The notes beneath the pieces were generated by a model. That model saw nothing but the letters and a program-made list of their open reading frames with translations, was not told the DNA's origin and ran no database searches. Shown in pieces: positions 246 through 35,504 of a stretch of DNA of 35,504 nt (its first letter is position 1; every line of letters begins with the position of its first letter). This DNA comes from Bacteroidota bacterium (GTDB taxonomy: Bacteria > Bacteroidota > Ignavibacteria > Kapaibacteriales > UBA2268): positions 1 to 35,504 of the forward strand of contig JAJRPT010000031.1 in the NCBI GenBank assembly GCA_024280675.1, written 5' to 3'. Made by a program: the position numbers and the translations under genes.

Positions 246-1310
246 TTACCTGCGTCCGCCACCTGATCTTCGACTTCCGCCACCACTTGATCTTGAGCCA
301 GACGAACGTGATCCGCCACTTGACTTTCGCACACCTGAGCTGCGTGAACTTGAGCCACTTGACTTGCGTACACCTGAGCTGCGTGAACTTGAGCCACTTG
401 ACTTACGTACGCCTGAGCTGCGTGAACTTGAGCCACTTGACTTACGTACGCCTGAGCCGCGTGAACTTGAGCCACTTGACTTACGTACATCACTAGACTT
501 TGAAGAGCCACGTGTGTTTTTAGTTGTAGGTCTAACGGTTTTTGTGGTGTTTACAACTCTCGAGTTTGAATTTCTTGTGTTTACAACTCTCGAGTTTTTA
601 CTTGTGCTAGATCTTGAATTACCAACAGATTGAGTCTGACGAGAGGAACGTGGATTGTAGGCAACTCTCCTGGAGCTTCTAGGGTTTGTACTTCTATTTA
701 CCGCAGTTCTTGATGATCTCGCTACCCTTCTCCCCGAACGATTATAAGCATAATCTCCACGACCAGAGGAATAGTTGCGATAACGGTTTCTTGGGATGCT
801 TGTTCTGTAATAGGAATAGTATGGCTGATTATAATATCCACGGTAATGGTATCGGCCGTTGTGATTGTAATCATACCAAGAGTATCCATAATAAGGATGA
901 TAGCTATACCATGGAGAATACCAGTCGTAGTAATAATATCCGCCGTATTGGCCGTATTGGCCACCCCAGCCATATCTATTATACCAAGGAACTATAACAG
1001 GAACATAAGCGGTTTGTGTGTAATATGTTGTTTCCTCAACCACATACTCATTTTCGTCCTGCCCATCGTATCCTGCTTGAGTTTCGGCATCATCGCCTAG
1101 TGGGTTAATCCAATCGGAATCCTCTGAGCTATCTTGCCCAGTAGAATTATTTTTCTTTACAACTTTGGTGACCTTCACAGTCTTGCTCTTATTTGAGTAA
1201 CCGTAATGATTGTCGGCTGGTACGACTTTGGTACACGAAGACAGCGAGAGTGCCAAAGTGATTAAGCTAAGCAATATGTAATTTGACCCTTTCATAATTT
1301 CCCCACTCAT
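246..1310 (-). CDS. Lipoprotein with an extreme Tyr/Trp/Gly-rich core and an Arg/Ser-rich tandem-repeat C-terminus (unknown function)
   Basis: 354-aa ORF. The N-terminus MSGEIMKGSNYILLSLITLALSLSSC carries a lipobox (LSSC); an alternative start is M6 at 1295. The core reads ...YGWGGQYGQYGGYYYYDWYSPWYSYHPYYGYSWYDYNHNGRYHYRGYY.... The C-terminus has about 5 copies of SSGSSSRSSGVRK. The stop lies 24 nt upstream of the next minus-strand gene. Confidence 0.75.
   Translation of the reverse strand: MSGEIMKGSNYILLSLITLALSLSSCTKVVPADNHYGYSNKSKTVKVTKVVKKNNSTGQDSSEDSDWINPLGDDAETQAGYDGQDENEYVVEETTYYTQTAYVPVIVPWYNRYGWGGQYGQYGGYYYYDWYSPWYSYHPYYGYSWYDYNHNGRYHYRGYYNQPYYSYYRTSIPRNRYRNYSSGRGDYAYNRSGRRVARSSRTAVNRSTNPRSSRRVAYNPRSSRQTQSVGNSRSSTSKNSRVVNTRNSNSRVVNTTKTVRPTTKNTRGSSKSSDVRKSSGSSSRGSGVRKSSGSSSRSSGVRKSSGSSSRSSGVRKSSGSSSRSSGVRKSSGGSRSSGSRSSGGGSRRSGGGRR
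293..487. repeat. 39-bp in-frame tandem repeat: 4 near-perfect copies at 332, 371, 410 and 449, plus 1 degenerate copy
   Basis: The unit cacctgagctgcgtgaacttgagccacttgacttgcgta recurs at an exact 39-bp period with 1-3 substitutions. It encodes the 13-aa SSGSSSRSSGVRK repeat on the minus strand. Confidence 0.92.
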
Positions 1311-5927: not shown

Positions 5928-6000
5928 GTTCCAAATATACGGCTTAGGGATGGATAATAAACATTCTATTTTCCAAGTGAGGCATCTCCATTATTTCAGT

Positions 6001-17537: not shown

Positions 17538-19937
17538 ATGAAAAATCAATTCAAAATATTAACTAATTCGGAGGGAGTCGTGAAAAGACTTTCAATTTAT
17601 TTGCTTTTGGCAGTTTTTCTTTCGCCAACAGTATTTTCGCAAACCTTTACAATGTCGGGAGCTTCGGCGACCTTTCACAATGAAGGTGTGATTAGATTTG
17701 TAGACAACGACGGTAAATTCCGTACCACATCCAGCAACGTATCAAATGTATCAAATTCTGGTACGATACAATTCGACGGCACGGACAATCAATTCACCGA
17801 CGAGTCCGACGCAGTTGGAACTACTGGTGCTTTGGGTTCAAGCTCTGCTCTTAGAGTACCTGGGACAGTTAGATATTCCGCAACGGTTGGTACGCAAAAT
17901 CTACAAAACAGGTATCTTACCAATTTGCAAACGTCGGCTGCATCTACCAAAGCATTCCCGAATAACATATTTGTAAGCTCTTCTTATTCAGTTGCTGGCG
18001 GAGACAGAGATTATGACGCAAATGCGGGTACTTTCACCTACGATGGCACGGGTGATCAAACAATAGTGGGCGAAAGTGGAGCTGGTGCAACCAATGGTTA
18101 CAACAATCTATTCTTTGCTGACACTGGGGATAAGACATTAGAAAATGGACAAACAGTAAGAGTTAATTCAACACTCAATATACTAGCCTCCACCTCAAGT
18201 GCTTCAATTATTGTAAAAGGTTCTATATTAGTAGATGATTATTTCAGCCAAGAACTTGACGCTGCAACTCTATATGTAGACGGAGTTGATGGAAATGCTT
18301 CTCTGTCATTTGGCTCAACTCAAGCAGATATTTACTCAGATATTGACTTGCGTAATGGAAACGGAACCGCTAATGTGTACCTTGGTACAGGTGGTGCTGT
18401 GATTCAAGATGGTACAAGTCCTTCTGTTTTAGTCAATTCTGGAACTTTCCACGTTGTTGATGGTAATTTAGAAATTGCATCATCTACTTCTAACTCTTTC
18501 CAACTTGCCAATAGTGCAGACGCACAAATTATTGTTGGTGCAAGTCGTTCATTCACTATAACTGGTGGTGGCTTTGCCAATGATGTAGCAGTTGGATCAA
18601 GATCTAATATGAATTTTGATGACGCATCTTTTGTAGTCTATGACACCGACGGGAATGTGATGCTGACTGACCGTTCCCACCCTTATGGCTCGCTCTACTT
18701 AAAAGGAACTGGTCACGGTACAGAAGCTGCTAGTGGTTCTTTCTATGTCTCTGAAGATTTCAACCTATCGGGCGAAGACTGGGATATTACTGGTGGTGCA
18801 ACTGCTGGTGCTGAATCCTCTCACACATTTATTATGACTGACAAAACTGCTAATGCTTCCTATGATGGCGGAGCTGAACTGACTGGTCTTATGATTCGTG
18901 AATTTGTTGGTGGAGCGGATCCAACAACTACTTACACACTCAATAACGAAGCTACTACTGTAGATTTTGAAGCAGGCAATGCTAATGTTGCAAGCCTTGG
19001 TCTTGACGTTCGTCCTGGTGGTGGTACTGCTGGATATGTTTCTGATTTCGACGCAAACAGAGATGTTGACCGTAGTGCCGGTTTCTACTTCGATGCTGCA
19101 TCTGGTACATTCGAGGCTAACGTGCTGGTGGGTTACAAATCTGCATCGGAAGCTGGTGCTCATAGTGCTATAGTTACTCAAACTTTGCGTTACCGTGAAG
19201 ATGATGGAACTTCTAACACAAAAGTATCTACTGGATACACTTACGCTCGAAATTCAACTTCATCTCCATTTGAAACTGTATATTATAGAGGAATTAGAAA
19301 AGATGGCGATGTTGGATCTAACAACTATACTCTGGCCGGCGTTGCAGCAGGGAATGTATTATTCCTTCGTGGTGGACCGACTTACTTCATATCTGTAACC
19401 AGTGGTCGTTGGGCAAATCCTTCAACTTGGGATGAGAACGAGCAACCTGGACCAGATGACATTGCTGTTGTAAAACACAACGTACACGTTGGATATGTGA
19501 AATCAACTGATAATTATGGTATCAATGATGACGGAACAGAAGAGTTTGACTGGATTACTAACCAATTCGGTGGCTCTTATGTAAACACTCAACTTGTGTC
19601 TAAAATCATAATCGACGAAGAGTACAATGACATTGGAAACCCAACAAATGTTGCTACTCTAATGGTTGGTCAAGATGTTTCAATGGGAATCCGCTCTGAT
19701 GCTTCGCTTGACGGATTAGTGCCTGAGCATGGTTCTATACAAATAAAAGATAATGCAAATATTGCTACGCTTGACTTGCCAAGCGATCTTACGACCGAAA
19801 ACACTGGTGCAGGCGAAGTTAATTCTGGCCTTATAATTTACGCCGGAGCAACTTTCCATGTTCAAAGAAACTTCGATCTTGAGGATAATGGTTTATTTGT
19901 TGGTCCTGACGCTACTGTACTCATTGATAAAAAATAG
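17538..19937 (+). CDS. Secreted Gly/Thr/Ser/Asn/Asp-rich protein (about 785-799 aa), beta-helix/adhesin-like, no recognisable T9SS CTD
   Basis: A likely true start is GTG 17580 (MKRLSIYLLLAVFLSPTVFSQ), preceded by GGAGG at 17570..17574 with a 5-nt spacer. The signal peptide ends ...FSQ|TF. Adhesin-like patterns include TFTYDGTGDQTIVGE...GYNNLFFADTGDKTLENGQTVRVNSTLNI and SGRWANPSTWDENEQPGPDDIAVV. Confidence 0.8.
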   Translation: MKNQFKILTNSEGVVKRLSIYLLLAVFLSPTVFSQTFTMSGASATFHNEGVIRFVDNDGKFRTTSSNVSNVSNSGTIQFDGTDNQFTDESDAVGTTGALGSSSALRVPGTVRYSATVGTQNLQNRYLTNLQTSAASTKAFPNNIFVSSSYSVAGGDRDYDANAGTFTYDGTGDQTIVGESGAGATNGYNNLFFADTGDKTLENGQTVRVNSTLNILASTSSASIIVKGSILVDDYFSQELDAATLYVDGVDGNASLSFGSTQADIYSDIDLRNGNGTANVYLGTGGAVIQDGTSPSVLVNSGTFHVVDGNLEIASSTSNSFQLANSADAQIIVGASRSFTITGGGFANDVAVGSRSNMNFDDASFVVYDTDGNVMLTDRSHPYGSLYLKGTGHGTEAASGSFYVSEDFNLSGEDWDITGGATAGAESSHTFIMTDKTANASYDGGAELTGLMIREFVGGADPTTTYTLNNEATTVDFEAGNANVASLGLDVRPGGGTAGYVSDFDANRDVDRSAGFYFDAASGTFEANVLVGYKSASEAGAHSAIVTQTLRYREDDGTSNTKVSTGYTYARNSTSSPFETVYYRGIRKDGDVGSNNYTLAGVAAGNVLFLRGGPTYFISVTSGRWANPSTWDENEQPGPDDIAVVKHNVHVGYVKSTDNYGINDDGTEEFDWITNQFGGSYVNTQLVSKIIIDEEYNDIGNPTNVATLMVGQDVSMGIRSDASLDGLVPEHGSIQIKDNANIATLDLPSDLTTENTGAGEVNSGLIIYAGATFHVQRNFDLEDNGLFVGPDATVLIDKK

Positions 19938-20056: not shown

Positions 20057-22471
20057 ATGAAAAAGATAATCTACATATTAAGCGTTCTCACATTCTTTGC
20101 CACCGCAGAGTCGCAGACATTTTCCAGCCATGGAGTGATTGTAAATGAAGGGACTTTTATTATTAAAGATTTGAACTTGGTAAGACTGGGCGGTACGGTA
20201 GAAAATTCTGGGACATTCACATTAAGCGACAGCCCAAATGGTATGTTCATTGAATCTAACTCTAATTTTATCAACACTGGCGAATTTAATTTATTTAACA
20301 CTTTGAACTGTAATGGCAATATTGACAATGAAAATGGATATTTGCAATTAAATTATAATGGTGGGACTGTTCTTGCCCAAGATGCCATTGGCGGATTTGT
20401 AGATTTTAATTACTCTGAGGATTTTCAAGTAATTCCTATGCTGAGCTTTGACAGTGTTGTGTTCAGAGGAAATGTGAAAAGATTTGATTATGACAACACA
20501 AGAAACCAAGATTCATTAGTTGCCCGCTCTTATTTCTCCTCCAGCAACAACACACAACTGACTTATCAATCTGATGATATAGAAATACACTCTCACCAAG
20601 TCACCAATCATGGCGGAACTGTTAAAAACTTCTCTGGTCCATGGTCTTGGTTTAGACAAAACTCCGACTCTCTTGGCGCGCAACTTGGTGGTTCTGGGTC
20701 TTTTACTCAATATGAAGTAGACAATCCAAATGGTGTAGAAATTGTAAGCAATGGAATATATATTGAGAATTTATTGCAACTCAGCCAGGGTGAGATGAAG
20801 AATACATCATCGCTCAACCTCACAATGGCAGACCAATCATCAATCCACCGCAAACCACAGTCATCACTATCGAGCCAGCCAAACTGGGAAGGCACGGTGG
20901 CTGTTCTTTACAATGGTTCTTCTAGCATCTCTACTAAAATTACAGCTGAGATTCCTACAGGCAAATCAATACTCACAGATCTTGAAGTGGAAAATACTGG
21001 AGGTATTGAGCTGACTCGTGACGTTTATGTAACCGACCGAATTTCGCTCAGAGATGGGAATATTTACACAGACGAAGACACAGACTCAGACGGCACAAGA
21101 GACAGCAGAAACACTTTATACATGATTAATTCTGACAATACAGCTTTAGAATTCGAGGACAAAAGCTCTGAGATTGTTGGTGCTTTTGCAAAAACTAATC
21201 TTGTGCTTGGTCAGGCAATGAAATTCAACAACGAATATACTAATTTAGCACTTGGTGAATTTGGCTCGGATATAGGAAATATTGACACATTGATTCTTCG
21301 TGTAGAGCCAAAATTCTCTTGGGATCAGGCAACTTATGGCGAGGTATCCAATGTGCAAAGAAAATTTGAAATTGCAGCAAGAAATTCAAACGGAACTGAT
21401 GCTCTATTTTTGAACTCGGCTACTTTCGGTTATGCGTGGAGGCATTTTGCTTCCGCCCCACCTTTTGAGAATGAAACTCCTGCCACTGGTGAATTTTCTT
21501 TCGACGAAGCAAGGCTTATTCACTGGGATGAGACTAATAACTCTTGGATTGACCAAGGCGAATCGGCTACAATTTTAACAGATGAGGGTGCAAACTGGGC
21601 TTACGGCATAGCCGATTTAAGAGGAGAACTGGGTCAATTTGCGGTCGGTGTCTCAGCCATTGATTATCTGCGTTTGATAGCTAGTGCCATACTCCAAGGG
21701 CCATACCGTGGGCTTGGAATTTATTCCGATGCAAACTACACCTCCCCTAGCCCTGTCCCACTAATGGGAACTGAGCTTAACCAGCAAGGGCTTTTGCCAT
21801 TGAATGCTCCGGACGAATACCCTTACAATCTTGATCCCGCAAGAGCATCGGCTACACTTAGTGTAATGCCACAAAACATTGTGGACTGGATTGTTGTTGA
21901 GTTTAGAAACAAAGCACTAGCAGAAGATATTGGTCCTCCACTTAAAAGTTTTTTCAAGACTTGCTTGCTCAGGTCCGACGGAATGTTAATTGATTTGGAC
22001 GGATCATCTGAGATTCTAATACTACAAGAAGATACCAAGACACCAGAGAATCCTGGAGGAATTGACGCAAGTGGAAACACTCCATATCATATTGTTTTAC
22101 GTCACAGAAACCACCTCTCAGTAGTCAGTGCTAATCCCGTATCTTTTTCTGGAGGCGATACCACAAGACTTACTCTTTCGCCTGGAGATTTGCTCGGCGA
22201 AGTGAAATTGCTTGGACTTGATAATCTGGGCAATAATATATTTGGACTATTGGCTGGGAACACAGACCACAATAGACTAACCATATTAAATGAGCAAATT
22301 ATTAATGAGTTTGGTTTCGAAGACGACAAGCAAGCCATCTGGAATAAAATTGGTTTGGCTGGCTACATGAGAGAAGATGCAAACCTTGACGGTTTGGTCT
22401 CGACAAAAGATTATAATATAAGCTGGAATAATAGACAGAAATTTACACTAGTCAAAGATTTGCTTCCATGA
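20057..22471 (+). CDS. Secreted 804-aa protein, N-terminally similar to the 17538 product; C-terminal 'LQGPY...DWIVVEFR...HRNHL' module and dockerin/EF-hand-like loop
   Basis: The signal peptide is MKKIIYILSVLTFFATAESQ|TF. The N-terminus QTFSSHGVIVNEGTFIIK...ENSGTFTL parallels QTFTMSGASATFHNEGVIRF...SNSGTIQF of the upstream gene. The C-terminus contains ...ILQGPYRG...PYNLDP...IVDWIVVEFRNK...LLRSDGMLIDLDG...YHIVLRHRNHLSVVS... and DANLDGLVSTKD. The stop overlaps the next start (ATGA). Confidence 0.8.
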   Translation: MKKIIYILSVLTFFATAESQTFSSHGVIVNEGTFIIKDLNLVRLGGTVENSGTFTLSDSPNGMFIESNSNFINTGEFNLFNTLNCNGNIDNENGYLQLNYNGGTVLAQDAIGGFVDFNYSEDFQVIPMLSFDSVVFRGNVKRFDYDNTRNQDSLVARSYFSSSNNTQLTYQSDDIEIHSHQVTNHGGTVKNFSGPWSWFRQNSDSLGAQLGGSGSFTQYEVDNPNGVEIVSNGIYIENLLQLSQGEMKNTSSLNLTMADQSSIHRKPQSSLSSQPNWEGTVAVLYNGSSSISTKITAEIPTGKSILTDLEVENTGGIELTRDVYVTDRISLRDGNIYTDEDTDSDGTRDSRNTLYMINSDNTALEFEDKSSEIVGAFAKTNLVLGQAMKFNNEYTNLALGEFGSDIGNIDTLILRVEPKFSWDQATYGEVSNVQRKFEIAARNSNGTDALFLNSATFGYAWRHFASAPPFENETPATGEFSFDEARLIHWDETNNSWIDQGESATILTDEGANWAYGIADLRGELGQFAVGVSAIDYLRLIASAILQGPYRGLGIYSDANYTSPSPVPLMGTELNQQGLLPLNAPDEYPYNLDPARASATLSVMPQNIVDWIVVEFRNKALAEDIGPPLKSFFKTCLLRSDGMLIDLDGSSEILILQEDTKTPENPGGIDASGNTPYHIVLRHRNHLSVVSANPVSFSGGDTTRLTLSPGDLLGEVKLLGLDNLGNNIFGLLAGNTDHNRLTILNEQIINEFGFEDDKQAIWNKIGLAGYMREDANLDGLVSTKDYNISWNNRQKFTLVKDLLP

Positions 22472-23919
22472 GGATTTGTCTCTACATATTAATTTTTGCC
22501 CTTGCTTCTCTTGCACATATTAATGCTCAGGAAAACCTTGCCACCTTTGTTATTAAAAATTCTCGTGCCATCGCTCCAGATTCTCTAGAATTTGAAATAT
22601 GGATGGAAAGAAATAGCGAAAAATGGGAAAGATTTGCTAATGCTTCTTTTAATCTAGAGTTTGTTTTCGATGACGAACAAACCGTGACCACTGGTCTTGC
22701 AAAAATTAATCCAGATGAGATGGGTATAGTATTTTTGCCTAGTACAGTGGCTGATTTCCAAGGCATAAGTGCTGGTGATCATGCCTCAACAGATGTAAGC
22801 TCACTTGCCGAAAATGAATACAAGGTCATTGACAGGATTTACATTGACGATATTCACGAAGGCAGAATAAGCATAACACTGGTCGGCTCAGATGAATTTC
22901 CTGATACAAAATATATATGGGCTAACGACGAGATGGACTCTAGTCTTTTTATTGCTAGATTTCTTATCTACTCTAAGAAAAGCTATAAGCAAGTGCCTAG
23001 AAGACTTGCATTTAAAAAACCTCTCAGCTATTATCAAAATGTGACATACAAGATAAATGACATCGTTGAGCAGTTCGGTCAAACAGATTATTATATTGCC
23101 GATGACAACATTTCTATGGTAGATCCAACGGGTCAGACCAGCATTGCATTTTTCCCGGATGTTGCTCCTCCTCCAGATTTTGTACTCAGATACATCCATC
23201 CACAATACCTTGGCAATGGGAAAATGAGAATTTCTTGGGCAACTACTGCTGAGATTTTCAATACAGGGTTTATGATTGAAAGAGTTCGCATGCCATATTT
23301 TTCAACTGCTGAAGATCTTGCAAGTATTAATTGGGTATCTCAGCTTGATAAAAATTTAGATTATGACAATGAACTTTCTGCTCCAAATCCAGACATATCT
23401 ATTGTAGGTTTTGGCGACACAGAACTACCACAAAATGCAAATCACTCCAACGAGATATTAAATGATAAATTACTAGCAGGTGCAGACCATCCCGATGGCT
23501 ATGATTACAACTTTATTGACGAGCATGACTTTGTGCGAGAGGATTATTATTGCTTCCAAGTCTCTTCTATCGACTGGAATGGTACCGTTGTGCCTCTTGG
23601 GCAAACTTGTGAGAAAATACCAAATGCAATCATCACACTAGCAGAAGCTAGACCAAATCCATTTGCCAGAGAAACCACGGTGCAGTTTTCAGTCGATGAT
23701 GATGTGAACCTTTGGGCTTATGTGGTGGACGAAAAAGGAAGTATAATAAAAAGATTATACGAAAATGACCATGTGCAAAAAGGCACATATCTACTCAATA
23801 TCTCAATGCCAGAATTCTCCTCGCAAGGACTCTACAGCCTTGTTTTCACGGCTGAACCTATCAATGATAAAAATTTCGAAATCTCACGTGCATTGGTTAA
23901 ACTGCACATGATTAAATAA
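22468..23919 (+). CDS. Secreted 483-aa protein with type-A T9SS C-terminal sorting domain
   Basis: The signal peptide is MRICLYILIFALASLAHINAQ. An 'MRISWATTAEIFNTGFMIERV...YYCFQVSSIDWNGT' module is followed by the CTD ARPNPFARETTVQFSVDDDVNLWAYVVDEKGSIIKRLYEN...GLYSLVF...KLHMIK. The start overlaps the upstream stop by 4 nt. Confidence 0.8.
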   Translation: MRICLYILIFALASLAHINAQENLATFVIKNSRAIAPDSLEFEIWMERNSEKWERFANASFNLEFVFDDEQTVTTGLAKINPDEMGIVFLPSTVADFQGISAGDHASTDVSSLAENEYKVIDRIYIDDIHEGRISITLVGSDEFPDTKYIWANDEMDSSLFIARFLIYSKKSYKQVPRRLAFKKPLSYYQNVTYKINDIVEQFGQTDYYIADDNISMVDPTGQTSIAFFPDVAPPPDFVLRYIHPQYLGNGKMRISWATTAEIFNTGFMIERVRMPYFSTAEDLASINWVSQLDKNLDYDNELSAPNPDISIVGFGDTELPQNANHSNEILNDKLLAGADHPDGYDYNFIDEHDFVREDYYCFQVSSIDWNGTVVPLGQTCEKIPNAIITLAEARPNPFARETTVQFSVDDDVNLWAYVVDEKGSIIKRLYENDHVQKGTYLLNISMPEFSSQGLYSLVFTAEPINDKNFEISRALVKLHMIK

Positions 23920-28778: not shown

Positions 28779-30521
28779 TTATATTTTCTTTTCTAACCCA
28801 GCATTTATCTCAGCAATCCGCTTTAGGTTCTCCTCAACATTTGCTTGCCCTGAAGATATTTTTTGCTCTAGTGTCTTTACTTTTTCTAAATCTATTGACT
28901 CCTGAGAACCCTCTTTTATTTTCACTAAAAAAGATTCGTCCTCTTTGATTAATTTCTCAATATTTTCATTCTTTTGTTCTAATTTTTTAATCTTCTCCTC
29001 TAGTTTCTTACGCTTTTCCACCTCACGTCTTCTGAGGAAATCTTTTCTCTTTGAGTCAAACTTTTTAAAACCTTTTCTAATCCTTGCCAGCAATTCATTG
29101 CGATGGGAGCGTGTCAGCTTTATAATCTTGACCTCATCTTGGACATCAATTAAGCCCTCACGAATATCTCTGAAATTATTAGAGTATTCAACATTGGCTA
29201 TCGCCTCACTTATTTTCAGCTCAAGTTTCACAAAATTGCTTTTAGATATTTCCTTGAACTCCTCTGTCATCTCTTCGGTATTCTGGTTGAGCTTCGAAAA
29301 TATTGCACGAATCTCACCAAAGAGTTCATCACTTTGCCTTCTTGTCAAAGCTAATTGCTTTAGCTTCTTCTGGGTTTCAATTAGATGATTTCGAGAGGAA
29401 CTACTATTTTTTGGATCACTTGCAAATAAAATTGCAGTATCGACCATTGGCTTTGCCAACAAATAATTTTTCTCTGCGACTTCCCCAAAAGCCTTACGTT
29501 CGTTGTCTTGTTTTGCATTTATTTCATCGAATGCCAATCGTATTGTGCCATAGAGTTCGTCACGTTCCTTGCGTGAGAGCTTCACATCTCTTAGCTCTTT
29601 TTGTAGCGATATTAAAATCTTTCGTGCATTGTTTAAATCATCAGACGTTTTTTCCTTGTTGCAAGCAAATTCTACACGTGGCTTAAACCGCAAATAATTC
29701 TCAGCACATTCCATCTCAAAGGCCTCTCGCTCTGCACCTTCAAGCATGTTAATCTTATCGAACAAATTTTGAATTGACTTGAAAAACACATCCCTGTCAC
29801 TTGGGCGAAAACTTATAGACTTCATCTCCTTTTGCAAAGAGATTAATATGAGTCTAGTTTCTTTTAAATTATTAGATAACTTTCCCTCTGCCTCTTCAAT
29901 CTTAATATCAAATGTTGGTTTATATTTATTAAAGTTTTCATCAAAGATTTTATTTCGTTCTTCTCTTTCTTTTGCCTGTCTACTAGACACCAACTCAAAG
30001 ACTTCTTGAATCCTCTGGTCTATTTCATTTCTTTGATCCAGTGGGATTAAAAACAATGCTGACAAAGATTCCTTCAAGCCAACCAAAGTTTTGCGAATAG
30101 ACCTTGCGTCTCTATTCTCCTCAAAACCTAATTCTAATGCTTCTATTGTCTCATTTAGAAAATTAAACTCTTTTTCTTGTTTGGCAAGTGCGTCTTTATT
30201 GACAGGAGCTTCAAAATGCTCAATTTCCTCAGCAACTGCTTCTGGCTGCACTGCTTCTTTCTCAATTTCCTCTTCTGCACTCGAATCCTCAAGCACCTCT
30301 ACCTTTTGCTCTGGTTCACTTTCCGGCTCCAGCTCTGGAGGTGATTGTACTTGATTAGCTTCTTCTTCTTGTTGCTCGCCAGCAGTAGATTCTACAGTGT
30401 CCTCACTTTGGGATTCCTCTTTTTGGATGGGCAGATTATGTTCTGTTTCAACTACATTCGTTTCTACCACTGCCTCAGATTCCTTTTTCACTTCAATATT
30501 GCTGTTTTCTTCTTGTGTCAT
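28779..30521 (-). CDS. Acidic N-terminus plus a five-fold ~65-aa helical repeat protein, divergent DUF349-like
   Basis: 580 aa. Five units share the pattern L(I)xLQKE(l)xx(v)xLxRxxRDELfxxIRxaFdxinxxxxxxxxxF. One example is ARKILISLQKELRDVKLSRKERDELYGTIRLAFDEINAKQDNERKAF. This mirrors the DUF349 core (LQkEWk.iG.v.r...d.LW.rFr.a.D.Ff) but lacks its Trp residues. The E/K-rich C-terminal region looks coiled-coil. Confidence 0.65.
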   Translation of the reverse strand: MTQEENSNIEVKKESEAVVETNVVETEHNLPIQKEESQSEDTVESTAGEQQEEEANQVQSPPELEPESEPEQKVEVLEDSSAEEEIEKEAVQPEAVAEEIEHFEAPVNKDALAKQEKEFNFLNETIEALELGFEENRDARSIRKTLVGLKESLSALFLIPLDQRNEIDQRIQEVFELVSSRQAKEREERNKIFDENFNKYKPTFDIKIEEAEGKLSNNLKETRLILISLQKEMKSISFRPSDRDVFFKSIQNLFDKINMLEGAEREAFEMECAENYLRFKPRVEFACNKEKTSDDLNNARKILISLQKELRDVKLSRKERDELYGTIRLAFDEINAKQDNERKAFGEVAEKNYLLAKPMVDTAILFASDPKNSSSSRNHLIETQKKLKQLALTRRQSDELFGEIRAIFSKLNQNTEEMTEEFKEISKSNFVKLELKISEAIANVEYSNNFRDIREGLIDVQDEVKIIKLTRSHRNELLARIRKGFKKFDSKRKDFLRRREVEKRKKLEEKIKKLEQKNENIEKLIKEDESFLVKIKEGSQESIDLEKVKTLEQKISSGQANVEENLKRIAEINAGLEKKI

Positions 30522-30592: not shown

Positions 30593-32647
30593 CTATTTTT
30601 CTATTTCTTCTTCTTTGCCGTCATTTAGATTAATAGACTTTATTGCCTCCATTGCTTGGGAGCTAATCTCTGGAAGCTCCTCGCCTTTGAACATCTTGTC
30701 CAGCTCTTCGCCCGTTATCACTTCTCGCTCAATTAATATTTTTGAACATTTTTCCAAAAGCTCTTTATTCTCACAAAGAAGACCTTCGGCAACGGCGTAA
30801 GAATTGCTGAGTATTTTCCTTACCTCAGAATCAATTATTTCCGATGTCTTCTCCGAATGATCCTTTGGCTGGGAAATCTCACGACCAAGAAAGACATCAT
30901 CTTGTTTAGTTGTGAAATTTACTGGTCCGATAATATCTGACATGCCCCAATCGCAAACCATCTTTTTAGCAATCTCGGTAGCCCGCTGAATATCATTTTG
31001 AGCTCCGGTGGACAGGACATTGAAAGTGAGCAACTCGGCCGCTCGTCCTCCCATCATCATCGCTAATTTCTGCTCTAAATAAGTCTTTGATTTCGAATGA
31101 AACTCCTCATCTGGCAAATATGAAGTAACTCCAAGAGCTTGTCCTCTAGGGATAATCGTCACTTTGTGTACAGGATCAGGATTTTTAGTTAGCTTGCCAA
31201 CAAGGGCGTGTCCCATTTCGTGGTATGCCGTCATTTCTTTTTCTTTCTCAGACACCACCATACTTTTACGCTCAACGCCCATTAGTATCTTGTCCTTTGC
31301 ATTTTCAAAATCATACATTGTGACCTTCTCGCCATTTCGTCTTGCGGCAAGAAGAGCCGCCTCGTTTACAATATTTGCAATATCGGCTCCACTCAGGCCT
31401 GGTGTACCTTTTGCCAAAATTGTAACATCTACATCAGAACCTAAGGGAATTTTCTTAATATGAACTTCAAAAATACCCTTTCGTCCCCTCACATCGGGGC
31501 GATCTACTACCACCTGTCGGTCGAATCTTCCAGGACGAAGAAGTGCCGGGTCAAGTACGTCCGGGCGGTTGGTTGCAGCAATAATAATTACACCACTATT
31601 TTGCTCAAAACCATCCATCTCCACAAGAAGTTGGTTCAGAGTCTGCTCACGCTCATCGTGTCCTCCCCCAACCCCAGCCCCACGCTGGCGACCAACTGCG
31701 TCAATCTCATCAATAAAACAAATGCAAGGAGAATTTTTCTTCGCTTGCTCAAAAAGATCCCTCACCCTGCTTGCACCCACACCAACGAACATTTCAACAA
31801 AGTCGGCCCCACTCATTGAGAAAAACGGAACATCTGCCTCGCCTGCCACAGCCCTTGCAAGAAGCGTCTTGCCGGTACCAGGAGGTCCCAAAAGCAACAC
31901 TCCTTTTGGAATCCTACCGCCAAGTTTTTGGAATTTCTCAGGCTCTTTCAAAAATTCTATAATTTCTTCTAGCTCATATTTTGCCTCATCAATGCCAGCC
32001 ACGTCCTTGAATGTCACAGGCTCTATATTTTCATCTACCAGCTTAATACGTGCCTTTCCAAAAGAAAACAGTCCCTTTTGCCCTCCAGCACCTCCCCCAT
32101 TTTGCATCCTCTTCATAAAGAAAATTACCAGACCAAAAAGCATTAGAAGTGGCAAAAAAGAAAGCACCGTCCCCCAGAAGAAATTATCACCTTCTTTATA
32201 AATAATGTTAATTCCCTTCTCCGACCACTCCGCTTCGGTGGCAGAATCAACGACAACAAGTTTGGTCACAAACTTAGTGATTGATTTGCTCTTGCCATCA
32301 ATCTCAAGAGTCACAGGATTGCTCAGAAATCCCTGGAATTCAAAGTCATTTAACTGCGTTTTGTAGACTACCCCTTCGGCTATCAGACCTTGGGACAAAA
32401 GATCTTTGTATTCAGAATATGAAATCTTGGGATCGGCCGAACGCCCGTCTTGGAAAAGAAATATCATTGAAAATATCCCCATACCAAGGAAAACCCACAA
32501 TAATAAATTCTTGCTAAATTTGTTGTCTTCGCCCGATTTGTTCGGATCGGAGCCATGAAAGCCCCGCTTTTTCTTTGGCGAATTTCCCTTTTTCATATTA
32601 TCATCACTCGACATATTAATTTTCCTGATTATTTTTTTCTGCATCAT
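30593..32647 (-). CDS. ftsH: ATP-dependent zinc metalloprotease FtsH
   Basis: 684 aa with an N-terminal TM pair. Motifs: Walker [18 protein letters not shown], Walker [33 protein letters not shown], and zinc site HEMGHAL. It lies directly downstream of tilS, a conserved neighbourhood. Confidence 0.97.
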
Positions 32648-32695: not shown

Positions 32696-35194
32696 TTATT
32701 TTTCCGTTACTATTAATTCAGCCTTTAGTATCTTTTTAGAATCAGAAGTAACCTTGTATTTCTCACTCATCCTCCACCCGCAAACCCATATTATATTTAC
32801 CCTGTCGCTAAGTACCATTAAGTTCTTACGCTCGGCAAATGCTATTTTATTATTGACAACAAAATCACTCAGCTTTACGCTCCCACCAAGTCCAATAGGC
32901 ATAAAACGATCCCCATTCCTTATCGTTCTGAGTTCAAGATTTTCTGGCATAAACTCCATATCAAAATACTCAATGTTTCTGCCCAAGCTGTAATCAACAT
33001 CTTTGACCTTCACAAGACTTAACCGCAGTGTGAAATTCTCATAGGCATACTCGCCCGTGTTCTTTATAATATAGGACTTTTCCTTTAATATCTTGTTCTT
33101 GTAAAACACTAACTGCATTCTATCTTTGACAACAGAAGTATAAGGATTAACTTCAATAATCTTTCCCGTCTCCGATTTCAATAAAGAACTTATACTACTT
33201 ATTTTCTTATAACTTGCGTCTCTGATATTAAAATATCGCTCCAAAATTAAGGAAATTAATTCACCTTTTATAAAACTTTCATTCAACTCTAATTTATTGG
33301 CATCTATTACCACATAACTCTTCTTTGATGAAATTATTAATCGGTCAAGATCTGGACGCACCTTGGAGTAAACAAATCTATCGGCCGAAGAAATCAAATG
33401 TGCCGAACGGTTTACAACAGAAATTATGTCTTTATTGAACTGCTTTTCAATAAATGGAATAAGGTCTAGCCGAATTTTATTCCGAAGAAATTGCTTTTCG
33501 GAATTTGTCTTGTCCTCACGCCACACTATATTTCGCTTGTCTGCATACTCTTGAATTTCTTTTCTTGTAGTGTGAACCAATGGCCTGATTATATTAATGT
33601 TCTTGTAAAGCGGTCTTTTCTGAGGAATACCACCCAGTCCAGTCAGACCTGATCCCCTCATAAGATTTATAAAGAAAGTCTCAGTAGAATCATTTGCATT
33701 GTGTGCTGTGGCTACAAAATTCACTTTGATAGATTTTGCTACTTGCTCAAAGAAAAAATAACGCCTGTTGCGTGCCGCCTCTTCGATTGAGTAGCCAAAA
33801 TCACTTGCGTACTTTTTGACATTTGCCTCATCCCTATAAAAAGGAATATTATATTTTTCGGCTAATTCCTCCACAAAGAATTCGTCCTCATCCGACTCTT
33901 TTCTTAGCTTGTGATTGAAATGGGCAATATGCAAAGACCACGATTTCTCAAGCGAAAGATTGGCAAACATATCCAGCATCACAATGGAATCAACCCCCCC
34001 ACTCACACACAGCAAGATAGACACTTTACTGTCCACATAAAGCGATTCAGAAAGAAATGAGTACAAGTCTCCAAGCATTTTTTTATAATATTTATCAATC
34101 TTTTGAAAGGGTGAAAGAAGCATATCTTGATTGATTACACTTCCTACAAATGGCTCCAGCTTGGGTATTACTCTTTTTATTTCCTTCTTTGAAGGTAGAA
34201 TATCGGGCGTTTGGTTTTCTTTTTTCTTATGTGATTTTTTTTGCGGTTTAGCTTTAACCATTGACTTCGATTTCTCCAGCTTCAAATCCAATTCGGACTT
34301 CTCCAAAATTTCCTGCGACGGAACTGAACCCGCTTCCGATTCGGCTGGCTCTTTCTTTAGTTTTGCTTTGGGCTTTGGCTTTGCTTTGGCTTTAGGTTTT
34401 GACCTTGATTTCTCCAGCTTCAAATCCAATTCGGACTTCTCCAAAATTTCCTGCGACGGATCGGAACCCGCTTCCGATTCGGCTGGCTCTTTCTTTAGTT
34501 TTGCTTTGGGCTTTGGCTTTGCTTTGGCTTTAGGTTTAGTTTTTGATTTCTCCAGCTTCAAATCCAATTCGGATTTCTCCGAAACTTCCTGCGACGGAAC
34601 TGAACCCGCTTCCGATTCGGCTGGCTCTTTCTTTAGTTTTGCTTTAGTCTTTGGCTTTGGCTTTGCTTTGGCTTTAGGTTTTGGCTTTGGTTTTGCTTTG
34701 GCTTTAGGTTTTGACTTCGATTTCTCCAGCTTCAAATCCAATTCGGACTTCTCCAAAATTTCCTGCAACGGAACTGAACCCGCTTCCGATTCGGCTGGCT
34801 CTTTCTTTAGTTTTGCTTTGGGCTTTGGCTTTGGCTTTGGTTTTGCTTTGGCTTTAGGTTTTGACTTTGATTTCTCCAGCTTCAAATCCAATTCGGACTT
34901 CTCCAAAATTTCCTGCGACGGAACTGAACCCGCTTCCGATTCGGCTGGCTCTTTCTTTAGCTTTGCTTTGGGCTTTGGCTTTGCTTTGGCTTTAGGTTTT
35001 GCTTTGGCTTTATCGCTCTTTGTCACACTTTTTTTTGCAGGTGACCGCTTCGCCTTAGTTTTAGCCTTGACAAGCTCCTCTTCTTTGACCAATTTAATCT
35101 TAGCCTTAGAAACTTTTCCTTTCTTAGCTTTATCGCCAACACTGGGCTTCCCCTCAGCTTTCTTAACTCTAGTATTTATTTTTTCTTTTGCCAT
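32696..35194 (-). CDS. tilS: tRNA(Ile)-lysidine synthetase TilS with a ~350-aa Lys/Pro/Ala-rich tandem-repeat N-terminal extension
   Basis: The PP-loop motif is ILLCVSGGVDSIVM, with SGGVDS at 34003..33986. TilS-like motifs follow (FNHKLR, ATAHNANDSTETFFINLMRGSG, RPL). The N-terminus has 5 copies of KPKAKAKPKPKAKLKKEPAESEAGSVPSQEILEKSELDLKLEKSKS. The start is set at M13 (35194, MAKEKINTRV) because the longer ORF to 35230 would encode a terminator-like hairpin; 35230 remains possible. Confidence 0.85.
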   Translation of the reverse strand: MAKEKINTRVKKAEGKPSVGDKAKKGKVSKAKIKLVKEEELVKAKTKAKRSPAKKSVTKSDKAKAKPKAKAKPKPKAKLKKEPAESEAGSVPSQEILEKSELDLKLEKSKSKPKAKAKPKPKPKPKAKLKKEPAESEAGSVPLQEILEKSELDLKLEKSKSKPKAKAKPKPKPKAKAKPKPKTKAKLKKEPAESEAGSVPSQEVSEKSELDLKLEKSKTKPKAKAKPKPKAKLKKEPAESEAGSDPSQEILEKSELDLKLEKSRSKPKAKAKPKPKAKLKKEPAESEAGSVPSQEILEKSELDLKLEKSKSMVKAKPQKKSHKKKENQTPDILPSKKEIKRVIPKLEPFVGSVINQDMLLSPFQKIDKYYKKMLGDLYSFLSESLYVDSKVSILLCVSGGVDSIVMLDMFANLSLEKSWSLHIAHFNHKLRKESDEDEFFVEELAEKYNIPFYRDEANVKKYASDFGYSIEEAARNRRYFFFEQVAKSIKVNFVATAHNANDSTETFFINLMRGSGLTGLGGIPQKRPLYKNINIIRPLVHTTRKEIQEYADKRNIVWREDKTNSEKQFLRNKIRLDLIPFIEKQFNKDIISVVNRSAHLISSADRFVYSKVRPDLDRLIISSKKSYVVIDANKLELNESFIKGELISLILERYFNIRDASYKKISSISSLLKSETGKIIEVNPYTSVVKDRMQLVFYKNKILKEKSYIIKNTGEYAYENFTLRLSLVKVKDVDYSLGRNIEYFDMEFMPENLELRTIRNGDRFMPIGLGGSVKLSDFVVNNKIAFAERKNLMVLSDRVNIIWVCGWRMSEKYKVTSDSKKILKAELIVTEK
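34262..35015. repeat. In-frame long tandem repeat array inside tilS: 5 units with periods 138, 138, 174 and 150 bp
   Basis: The core gatttctccagcttcaaatccaattcgga... recurs at 34269, 34407, 34545, 34719 and 34869. The ~95-bp conserved part is nearly identical between copies. Variable-length (ggctttggctttgctttg)n tracts between cores encode the (KPKA)n stretches. Confidence 0.92.
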
Positions 35195-35201
35195 ATATTG
35201 T

Positions 35202-35233
35202 AAAAAAAGGCGACTTATCCCGGCAGTCACCTT
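35202..35233 (-). terminator. Rho-independent terminator-like hairpin downstream of the T9SS-CTD gene fragment, abutting the tilS start
   Basis: The minus-strand RNA would read AAGGUGACU-GCCGGGAUA-AGUCGCCUU, a 9-bp stem with one G-U pair and a 9-nt loop, followed by a run of U (plus-strand A-run 35202..35208). Confidence 0.55.
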
Positions 35234-35254
35234 CTTTATATTTTAATGTGTGAA

Positions 35255-35504
35255 TTATTTTACAATGTTAATTTGAGTGCTAACAAGCGCATTTCCATTT
35301 GAAAGAATAAGATGGTAAACACCACTTGACAAATCATTTGCAGAAAATGAATACTCCCTTTTTCCCGCCTGATAATATTCCCTAAATAATTCTAACACTC
35401 TGTTGCCAAGGTTATCATAAATCTCTAAACTCAATTCATCAAAAACATTATTACCAAATTCAATTGTGAAATTATTAGAAATAGAGAGATTGTTTAAAGC
35501 CTTA
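35255..35504 (-). CDS. Partial CDS (C-terminal 83 aa; upstream part lies beyond the window end): type-A T9SS C-terminal sorting domain
   Basis: Hand translation of the minus strand ends ...FTIEFGNNVFDELSLEIYDNLGNRVLELFREYYQAGKREYSFSANDLSSGVYHLILSNGNALVSTQINIVK*, with the TAA at 35257..35255. This is a canonical CTD pattern (l.iYd.lG..v..l.......G....f.a..l.sGvY...l). It is absent from the ORF track because there is no Met in the window. Confidence 0.75.
   Translation of the reverse strand, partial: KALNNLSISNNFTIEFGNNVFDELSLEIYDNLGNRVLELFREYYQAGKREYSFSANDLSSGVYHLILSNGNALVSTQINIVK

What the first reader, a model, noticed from the sequence alone, without database searches (positions are those of the whole stretch)
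34130..35194. TilS fused to a ~350-aa histone-H1/AlgP-like polycationic tandem-repeat extension
A normal-length TilS (PP-loop SGGVDS at 34003..33986) is preceded by five copies of a 46-58-aa unit. Each unit alternates a (KPKA)n polycationic tract with an acidic amphipathic segment (KKEPAESEAGSVPSQEILEKSELDLKLEKSKS). At the DNA level the conserved cores are nearly identical, with periods of 138, 138, 174 and 150 bp. Differences are confined mostly to the number of KPKA-coding hexamers. This points to recent expansion or contraction by slippage or recombination. KPKA/AKKA repeats are known nucleic-acid-binding tails in histone H1, Pseudomonas AlgP and chlamydial Hc1. I am not aware of such a tail on an essential tRNA-modifying enzyme. 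It could tether TilS to tRNA, ribosomes or the nucleoid, or drive condensate formation. It also sits in the conserved tilS-ftsH operon.
Basis: partly seen in the sequence, partly recalled or inferred. Interest (0 to 1): 0.65.

Follow-up and report, generated by a model that had tools for sequence, protein, structure and literature searches.

The report
TilS enzyme with a giant basic disordered tail
An essential tRNA-modifying enzyme (TilS) here carries a roughly 350-residue, positively charged, disordered, repeat-built N-terminal tail; the tail is real and selected, and a whole uncultured bacterial clade shares the trait, probably using it to hold RNA or other polyanions.

Summary
ORF 32696..35194 (-) encodes an 832-aa protein. 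Residues 358-832 are a complete TilS; residues 1-345 are a lysine-rich (29% K, net +58) region predicted to be disordered. It contains five tandem units of 46/50/58/46/46 aa (138/150/174/138/138 bp).

The tail is coding. Against a 65%-identical ortholog, nonsynonymous divergence (0.31) is far below synonymous (~0.86). The only motif the two arrays share, EKSELDLKLEK, is kept through synonymous changes only.

It is not a one-off. All 82 TilS cluster representatives with extensions of at least 100 aa (median 390, maximum 881) fall in one NJ clade of 104, labelled Kapabacteria or Ignavibacteria where named. Of these, 79 are net positive. They are K-rich in low-GC genomes and R-rich in a 56%-GC genome. 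In 78 neighbouring genes from seven loci only TilS has such a segment.

There is no homology to histone H1, AlgP or Hc1; the resemblance is compositional.

Best reading (inferred, untested): an electrostatic RNA/tRNA-binding appendage that evolves by repeat slippage. It resembles eukaryotic aaRS lysine-rich appended domains, PhaF KPAA regions and actinobacterial TopA lysine repeats. I found no published description.

The parts
32696..35194 (-). tilS gene, 832 codons plus stop; start taken as the ATG at 35194 (MAKEKINT...)
   Evidence: ORF list and start scan. The N-terminus MAKEK(I/T)NT is shared with ortholog P0001. 27 of 82 long relatives start with MAK.
34160..35194 (-). N-terminal region predicted to be intrinsically disordered (aa 1-345): 29-30% K, net +58
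   Evidence: AF2 pLDDT 34-53 with no secondary structure for aa 1-345, against a confident core. Charge analysis. No family or PDB match.
35009..35194 (-). Non-repetitive lysine-rich leader (aa 1-62)
   Evidence: 52% aa identity to P0001, pN 0.31 against pS 0.55.
34271..35008 (-). Tandem array of five units (aa 63-308): 35008-34871, 34870-34721, 34720-34547, 34546-34409, 34408-34271. Each unit is a (KP/KA)n block (+10) followed by an acidic block ending in EKSELDLKLEK (-5).
34271..34303 (-). One of five copies of the conserved motif EKSELDLKLEK (others at 34903-34871, 34753-34721, 34579-34547, 34441-34409)
   Evidence: Identical peptide in four of the five units of ortholog P0001 (the fifth reads EKSKLDLKLEK). 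Between typical copies, 5 of 11 codons differ, all synonymously.
34124..34270 (-). Basic linker (aa 309-357), partly conserved with P0001 (PDILPSKKEIKRVIPK.EPFVG)
   Evidence: pLDDT rises from 53 to 84 over aa 341-360.
32699..34123 (-). Complete TilS catalytic core (aa 358-832): PP-loop N-domain, central domain and TilS_C
   Evidence: PF01171 8.9e-54; PF11734 23.7 bits against cut-off 22. TIGR02432 201.7 bits against cut-off 93.6. PDB 3A2K aligned over aa 379-810. Foldseek 3a2k_A E 4e-31, TMt 0.73.
33986..34003 (-). PP-loop SGGVDS
   Evidence: invariant in the 28-sequence alignment.
35202..35231 (-). Terminator-like hairpin (GGTGACT...AGTCGCC) plus T7 run between the upstream T9SS-tail gene and tilS. 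It ends 7 nt before the ATG.
   Evidence: Sequence. L001 has a hairpin of different sequence plus a T-run at the same place. The pattern scan missed it because its loop is 9 nt.
30593..32647 (-). ftsH, immediately downstream (conserved tilS-(hpt)-ftsH neighbourhood)
   Evidence: TIGR01241 834 bits. Same order in L001, L086 and L087.

Best explanation
Shown:
- The gene encodes one polypeptide. A complete, ordinary TilS (tRNA-Ile2 lysidine synthetase) is preceded by a ~345-residue, strongly net-positive N-terminal region predicted to be disordered.
- In this genome the region consists of five recently homogenised ~46-aa units, each a (KP/KA)n cationic block plus an acidic block ending in EKSELDLKLEK.
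- Such a tail is an ancestral, TilS-specific trait of a large uncultured clade labelled Kapabacteria or Ignavibacteria.
- It evolves fast by in-frame repeat gain and loss. It keeps basic charge and low hydrophobicity, not sequence.

Inferred, not shown:
- The tail acts as a non-specific electrostatic nucleic-acid-binding appendage. It would raise the enzyme's capture rate and affinity for RNA, most plausibly its scarce substrate tRNA-Ile2(CAU) or bulk tRNA/ribosomal RNA.
- The structured C-terminal domains would still provide specificity.
- The acidic blocks may temper or auto-regulate the cationic blocks.
For: Translated and selected:
- Against ortholog L001 the extension has pN 0.31-0.32 and pS 0.55-0.86; the core has pN 0.107.
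- EKSELDLKLEK is kept with 5 synonymous and 0 nonsynonymous codon changes, while the rest of the unit has diverged. Nucleotide identity is 54% between genomes and 94% within this array.
- 47 of 82 long relatives have no Met where a normal-length TilS would start, and N-termini are stereotyped (MAK in 27 of 82).

Disordered: AF2 pLDDT is below 50 over aa 1-345.

Clade-wide and single origin: all 82 representatives with extensions of at least 100 aa lie in one NJ clade of 104, and none of 72 outgroups has one.

Charge, not composition drift, is what persists:
- 79 of 82 are net positive.
- The K/(K+R) ratio in the tail tracks that of the core (Spearman rho 0.74).
- The tail in a 56%-GC locus is R-rich (R 16%, K 9%, net +57).

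TilS-specific: among 78 called genes in 7 loci of the clade, only TilS has a low-hydrophobicity segment longer than 160 aa. Neighbouring tRNA enzymes (QueA, TsaE, Dus, Sua5) lack one.

Nucleic-acid hint in relatives: P0047 carries about 8 RKRPGRPKK motifs, which are AT-hook-like. The motif regex found 36 hits against 1.2 expected across all extensions, in 6 carriers.

Precedents:
- KPAA-type K-rich disordered regions bind RNA directly in PhaF (PMC12818456).
- Lysine repeats stabilise TopA-DNA complexes (PMC5714199).
- The disordered K-rich N-terminal domain of human LysRS binds tRNA (PMC6213541).
Against: - No binding or activity data exist. The function rests on analogy and composition.
- Length ranges from about 15 to 881 aa. 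22 of 104 clade members are short, and a 42-43%-identical Kapaibacterium TilS has none, so the tail is dispensable in some lineages.
- Strain-level indels and a 3-fold higher pN fit weak constraint.
- Three of 82 tails are slightly net negative.
- The relatives' start codons come from automatic gene calls.
- How tilS is transcribed is unclear, since a terminator-like hairpin ends 7 nt before the ATG.
- The window's copy number is unverified by reads.
Confidence: 0.5

Rival explanations
1. Nearly neutral low-complexity growth. Replication slippage or unequal recombination keeps inflating and deflating a tolerated N-terminal spacer that has no specific function.
For: - Extreme length and sequence variability.
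- Strain-level in-frame copy-number differences confined to the tail, for example SPANAKVN x0-4.
- Repeated contractions, 14 Fitch changes on the tree.
- No extension in L003 and L004.
- pN three times that of the core.
Against: - Only TilS carries it among 78 neighbouring genes.
- Net positive charge in 79 of 82, maintained whether the lineage uses K or R and from 29 to 56% GC.
- pN is well below pS, and a motif is conserved purely by synonymous change.
- It persists across a clade whose cores are only 33-50% identical.
Confidence: 0.2
2. The tail targets TilS to another polyanion or compartment rather than to its tRNA substrate. Candidates are nucleoid DNA, polyphosphate granules or ribosomes. 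Alternatively its blocky plus/minus pattern drives condensate formation.
For: - Blocky charge pattern, +10/-5 per unit; the kappa-type segregation measure is 2.6 sd above shuffles.
- AT-hook-like GRP motifs in P0047 and P0058 suggest DNA minor-groove binding.
- The K-rich AlgP associates with polyP granules (PMC9239181).
- A conserved neighbour two genes downstream has an acidic N-terminal disordered region, net -30.
Against: - There is no obvious reason for a tRNA-modifying enzyme to be on DNA or polyP.
- AT-hook-like motifs occur in only 6 of 82 tails and not in this window.
- There are no localisation data.
Confidence: 0.15
3. The highly charged tail is a solubility or stability device for an aggregation-prone enzyme. 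It would act as an entropic bristle or intramolecular chaperone, or as a handle for regulated proteolysis.
For: - TilS is described as an obligate Hsp90 client in Shewanella (bioRxiv 10.1101/2025.07.01.662558, abstract).
- The tail is highly charged and disordered.
- The gene is adjacent to the protease gene ftsH.
Against: - Solubility tags need not be consistently net positive, yet 79 of 82 are.
- The tilS-ftsH linkage is general in bacteria that lack the tail (own knowledge).
- Nothing here tests stability.
Confidence: 0.12
4. The extension is not part of the protein. Translation would start near aa 358 (ATG at 34123), and the upstream open frame or its copy number would be an annotation or assembly artefact.
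For: - An in-frame ATG sits exactly at the start of the core in this window and in P0001.
- A terminator-like hairpin lies just upstream of the long-form ATG.
- The array could not be checked with reads.
Against: - Protein-level purifying selection acts on the tail.
- The linker sequence upstream of aa 358 is conserved.
- 47 of 82 relatives have no Met in the equivalent place.
- Open frames of hundreds of codons recur in dozens of diverged genomes.
- The ortholog's five-unit array is identical in contigs from two samples.
Confidence: 0.03

Closest known systems
Eukaryotic aminoacyl-tRNA synthetase lysine-rich N-terminal appended domains (e.g. the human LysRS tRNA-interaction domain, PMC6213541)
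   Same: A disordered, lysine-rich N-terminal appendage on an enzyme that acts on tRNA. It is absent from most prokaryotic counterparts and is thought to add non-specific tRNA affinity.
   Different: Those domains are roughly 60-70 aa (own knowledge) and are not tandem arrays. They are eukaryotic. No sequence homology was detected here. tRNA binding by the TilS tail is untested.
PhaF / AlgP KPAA-repeat disordered regions of Pseudomonas (PMC12818456, PMC9239181)
   Same: Bacterial K/A/P-rich disordered repeat regions whose copy number varies between species. The PhaF C-terminal domain binds RNA directly, and AlgP associates with polyphosphate granules.
   Different: The motif here is KP/KA dipeptide runs interleaved with acidic blocks; there is no KPAA. 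The tail is N-terminal and fused to an enzyme rather than to a phasin or regulator. It gives no homology hits.
Actinobacterial topoisomerase I C-terminal lysine repeats (PMC5714199)
   Same: A clade-specific lysine-repeat tail of variable length, appended to an essential nucleic-acid enzyme, that increases substrate retention.
   Different: It is C-terminal, the substrate is DNA, and the lineage is different. Function is demonstrated there and only inferred here.
Chlamydial Hc2 / histone H1 C-terminal tails (PMC2848022)
   Same: Lysine-rich repeats with strain-level copy-number variation, and a similar K/A/P composition.
   Different: Those are stand-alone DNA-compacting proteins. No H1 globular domain or Hc1 family match was found here.
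Canonical TilS (E. coli 1NI5, G. kaustophilus 3A2K, A. aeolicus 2E89)
   Same: The core, aa 358-832, has the PP-loop, the central domain and TilS_C. The best structural match is the TilS-tRNA complex 3A2K.
   Different: Canonical TilS has about 20-35 residues before the PP-loop. This protein has 397.

Membership tests
TilS (tRNA(Ile)-lysidine synthetase) | PP-loop ATP-pyrophosphatase N-domain with the SGGxDS motif | tested here: met
   SGGVDS at aa 398-403. PF01171 E 8.9e-54. TIGR02432 201.7 bits against cut-off 93.6.
TilS (tRNA(Ile)-lysidine synthetase) | C-terminal tRNA-recognition domain (TilS_C), as in long-type TilS | tested here: met
   PF11734 scores 23.7 bits against cut-off 22 at aa 753-821. 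3A2K aligns over aa 379-810. Foldseek 3a2k_A E 4e-31, TMt 0.73. TIGR02433 at 18 bits is just below its 20.2 cut-off.
TilS (tRNA(Ile)-lysidine synthetase) | Converts C34 of tRNA-Ile2(CAU) to lysidine using ATP and lysine | not testable with these tools
   Needs a biochemical assay or complementation. No tRNA gene lies in the window.
Linker histone H1/H5 | Globular winged-helix domain (PF00538) flanked by K/A/P-rich tails | tested here: not met
   No Pfam hit in aa 1-357 at E up to 0.1. No PDB sequence hit at E up to 10 other than chance matches. Only the K/A/P-rich composition is shared.
AlgP/PhaF-type KPAA-repeat region | Multiple KPAA tetrapeptide repeats | tested here: not met
   The tail sequence contains KPKA/KAKP runs but no KPAA. 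No NCBIfam hit in the tail.
Chlamydial histone-like Hc1/Hc2 | Match to the Hc1 family model, or Hc2 lysine-rich pentamer repeats | tested here: not met
   No Pfam or NCBIfam hit in the tail.
AT-hook | GRP core flanked by basic residues | tested here: not met
   There is none in the window's tail. It is present only in relatives P0047, P0058 and variants, by regex only, without Pfam support.
Eukaryotic aaRS lysine-rich appended tRNA-binding domain | Sequence homology to the class IIb N-terminal helix or motif, and demonstrated tRNA binding | tested here: inconclusive
   No homology was detected by Pfam or PDB searches. The functional analogy cannot be tested with these tools.

The most novel reading that the evidence does not exclude
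A phylum-level bacterial lineage has given an essential tRNA-anticodon-modifying enzyme a polycationic disordered region of several hundred residues. This region would work like the appended tRNA-binding domains of eukaryotic synthetases, or would nucleate RNA-dependent condensates. That would make it the first bacterial tRNA-modification enzyme whose substrate capture or localisation depends on a long, rapidly evolving charge-patterned tail. The SLiM-like element EKSELDLKLEK might add a specific partner.
Probability: 0.35. Interest if true: 0.7.

Novelty: new variant of a known kind. Interest (0 to 1): 0.55.

Why it matters
TilS is essential in almost all bacteria and has been studied as a compact three-domain enzyme. 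A clade in which it nearly always carries a basic disordered extension of 200-880 residues gives a natural experiment. The extension is selected for charge rather than sequence, and it is specific to this one enzyme among its neighbours. This lets one ask what long disordered regions do in bacteria, where they are rare and little understood, and whether appended polycationic tRNA-binding domains, considered a eukaryotic innovation, arose independently in bacteria. It also flags a practical point: these long gene calls are probably correct and should not be trimmed to the conserved core.

Tried and rejected
1. Read support for the array. Three public runs hold only short, low-depth contig fragments, most of which match KPKA-like low complexity elsewhere. 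Copy number cannot be confirmed.
2. An exact look-up of the window's protein in public assemblies found nothing on record.
3. Homology searches with the tail alone (357 aa) and with a single unit (42 aa) found nothing. This is probably because of low-complexity word saturation or masking, so it is uninformative about whether other proteins share the unit.
4. I tested whether an alternating-hydrophobic motif (h-x-h-x-h, as in LDLKL) is a family-wide SLiM. It gave 40 hits against 52.5 expected by shuffling, so it is not general. It is enriched only in the window, P0001, P0006 and P0037.
5. The sigma-70 promoter and terminator pattern scan was not informative for this lineage. No Bacteroidota-type TAnnTTTG box lies upstream of tilS in the window or in L001.
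7. Shine-Dalgarno logic cannot choose between start codons, because 13 of the 16 window genes checked (and the three internal tilS candidates) have no SD-like tetramer upstream and none has one at a typical SD spacing.
8. Literature searches for any description of a disordered or lysine-rich extension on TilS found none.
Full report

Yes. On the minus strand an ORF runs from 35230 (GTG) to 32696. The first ATG is at 35194 and gives an 832-aa product beginning MAKEKINT.

Upstream of it, the repeat finder reports five in-register copies with start-to-start spacing 138, 138, 174 and 150 bp. TRF reports a 138-bp period with 92% matches. Read as protein, the units are 46, 50, 58, 46 and 46 aa. The length differences are entirely KP/KA dipeptide steps. 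The 102-nt acidic cores are 89-98% identical.

Residues 1-345 carry 109 K+R and 51 D+E, net +58. Each unit is a +10 block (SKSKPKAKAKPKPKAKLKK) followed by a -5 block (EPAESEAGSVPSQEILEKSELDLKLEK).

The mirror ORF on the plus strand (34131..35246) is the usual antisense shadow of a repeat.

**2. What is the rest of the protein?**

Residues 358-832 are a complete, ordinary TilS.
- PF01171 at 8.9e-54, and TilS_C above its cut-off.
- TIGR02432 at 201.7 bits against a cut-off of 93.6.
- Sequence alignment to the G. kaustophilus TilS of the tRNA complex 3A2K over aa 379-810.
- The AF2 model's best structural match is 3a2k_A (E 4e-31, TMt 0.73).

So nothing is missing from the enzyme that the tail might replace. 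ftsH follows 48 nt downstream. In relatives the order is tilS-(hpt)-ftsH.

**3. Is the tail part of the protein?**

The evidence is indirect but strong.

(a) A 65%-identical ortholog (P0001) was found with an identical protein sequence in contigs from two JGI samples. It has the same gene neighbourhood and also five ~45-aa units.
- Its units have been homogenised independently: nucleotide identity is 54% between genomes and 94% within this window.
- Yet EKSELDLKLEK followed by x-K-x-KPK is retained. The typical copies differ at 5 of the 11 motif codons, all synonymously.

(b) Nei-Gojobori proportions against this ortholog:
- leader: pN 0.31, pS 0.55;
- repeats: pN 0.32, pS 0.86;
- linker: pN 0.31, pS 0.86;
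- core: pN 0.107, pS 0.78.

This is relaxed but clear purifying selection in this frame.

(c) The linker upstream of Met358 is conserved (PDILPSKKEIKRVIPK.EPFVG).

(d) Across 82 long relatives, 47 have no methionine where a normal-length TilS would begin. The N-termini are stereotyped (MAK 27, MKK 7, MPR 5, MAR 4).

(e) AF2 with a 28-sequence alignment gives pLDDT 34-53 and no secondary structure for aa 1-345. The core is confident from about aa 350.

The open issue is transcription. A terminator-like hairpin plus T7 run ends 7 nt before the ATG. A hairpin of different sequence plus a T-run sits at the same place in the ortholog. Thirteen of the 16 window genes checked have no SD-like tetramer upstream and none has one at a typical spacing, so start-site logic based on SD does not apply.

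**4. How widespread is it?**

I searched the core alone against 1.84 billion cluster representatives and parsed the residues preceding the PP-loop.
- Ordinary TilS has 20-40 residues before the loop.
- Most of the roughly 105 best-scoring representatives instead have 200-920.
- On an NJ tree of 176 cores, all 82 proteins with extensions of at least 100 aa fall in one clade of 104.
- The other 22 clade members are short, most still with 14-89 extra residues.
- None of the 72 outgroup sequences has a long extension. Fitch parsimony gives 14 changes.
- Where sources give names, they are Candidatus Kapabacteria / Kapaibacteriota or Ignavibacteria MAGs.
- A 42-43%-identical Kapaibacterium TilS lacks the tail, so it can be lost.

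Extensions have median length 390 aa (116-881), hydrophobic fraction 0.19 against 0.37 in cores, and K+R of 13-32%. Of the 82, 79 are net positive.

The K/(K+R) ratio of the tail follows that of the core (Spearman rho 0.74). In a 56%-GC locus the tail is arginine-rich (R 16%, K 9%, net +57). Positive charge is therefore what is kept, not A-rich codons.

None of eight very long tails has a Pfam domain.

Only about 10 of the 82 are conspicuously repetitive. The window's tail is the most repetitive of all, with 59% of its 6-mers recurring.

**5. Is it a habit of the proteome or of TilS?**

I checked 78 called genes from seven loci of the clade (GC 29-56%). TilS is the only one with a low-hydrophobicity segment longer than 160 aa, and the only strongly basic one. 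Nearby tRNA enzymes (QueA, TsaE, Dus, Sua5/YciO) are unremarkable.

One caveat: an ORF I did not include in that list (246..1310) has an R/S-rich basic repeat. It looks like a secreted lipoprotein, a different kind of protein.

**6. Mode of evolution**

Within 90%-identity clusters every indel lies in the tail and is in frame. Examples are SPANAKVN in 0-4 copies and 4-5-aa units. Substitutions also concentrate there: 18/706 against 1/479 columns, 12/890 against 0/485, and 30/437 against 3/477.

**7. What does it do?**

Nothing here measures function. I commit to the following as most likely (about 0.5). The tail is a non-specific electrostatic nucleic-acid-binding appendage that increases TilS's encounter with, and retention of, RNA. 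The most plausible target is its low-abundance substrate tRNA-Ile2 or the tRNA/ribosome pool. The folded domains provide specificity.

Support:
- Charge is conserved regardless of sequence.
- The tail is restricted to one RNA enzyme.
- AT-hook-like RKRPGRPKK motifs occur in some relatives: 36 regex hits against 1.2 expected, in 6 carriers.
- There are experimental precedents for this chemistry. PhaF's KPAA disordered region binds RNA directly (PMC12818456). TopA lysine repeats stabilise DNA complexes (PMC5714199). The disordered K-rich N-domain of human LysRS binds tRNA (PMC6213541).

Rivals:
- nearly neutral repeat inflation (0.2);
- targeting to DNA, polyP or condensates (0.15);
- a solubility or stability device for an aggregation-prone enzyme (0.12; TilS is an Hsp90 client in Shewanella);
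- not translated, or an artefact (0.03).

**8. Comparison with known families**

Membership in histone H1, AlgP/PhaF-KPAA, Hc1/Hc2 or AT-hook families was tested and not met for the window's tail. The likeness is compositional and possibly functional.

The protein is a member of TilS by every sequence and fold criterion. I found no paper describing a disordered or lysine-rich extension on TilS. Public annotations simply call these proteins TilS.

**9. Verdict**

This is a real, selected and clade-wide feature: a new variant of a known enzyme that uses a known kind of appendage in a new place. It is moderately surprising to a tRNA-modification or bacterial-IDR specialist, and directly testable. 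The function is unproven, and the window's exact copy number is unverified.

Noticed in passing
window 28779..30521 (-): A 580-aa protein with no Pfam or NCBIfam match and a strongly acidic N-terminal disordered-looking region (aa 2-120, D+E 32%, net -30). It is conserved next to ftsH in L001 (587 aa) and L086 (595 aa, net -32). An acidic counterpart sitting two genes from the basic TilS tail is curious.
   Followed up: partly
window 246..1310 (-): A 354-aa ORF with a lipoprotein-like signal (..LALSLSSC), a Tyr/Gly-rich middle and a C-terminal Arg/Ser-rich tandem repeat (SGVRKSSGSSSRS, about 5 copies, net +44). No Pfam match.
   Followed up: partly
window 30593..32647 (-): FtsH carries a ~52-aa lysine-rich N-terminal extension (K 21%, net +8) before the region that aligns to FtsH models (the alignment starts at aa 45-56).
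   Followed up: no
window 35202..35231 (-) and L001 about 5955..5990: A terminator-like hairpin plus T-run between the upstream T9SS-tail gene and tilS sits at the same position in the ortholog, but with a different stem sequence. The tilS ATG follows within 7-9 nt, so it is unclear where tilS transcription starts.
   Followed up: partly
window, 16 gene starts: Only three of 16 genes have any Shine-Dalgarno-like tetramer in the 40 nt upstream of the start (at -6, -15 and -39), none at a typical SD spacing. Start contexts are A/T-rich, as in the Bacteroidota/FCB group.
   Followed up: partly
L005 3047..5674: This Ignavibacteria-labelled TilS (875 aa) has a 343-aa N-terminal tail and also a C-terminal low-complexity repeat (NQENSRSL, about 8 copies).
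   Followed up: no
P0047 (L084 10001..13588), P0058, P0043: The TilS tails of these relatives contain repeated RKRPGRPKK / RRRPGRKK motifs resembling AT-hooks (GRP core with basic flanks).
   Followed up: partly
window 35255..35503 (-): The gene upstream of tilS ends in a type IX secretion C-terminal sorting domain (PF18962, 31.5 bits). Several other large ORFs in the window (17538..19937, 20057..22471, 22468..23919) have no Pfam match.
   Followed up: no
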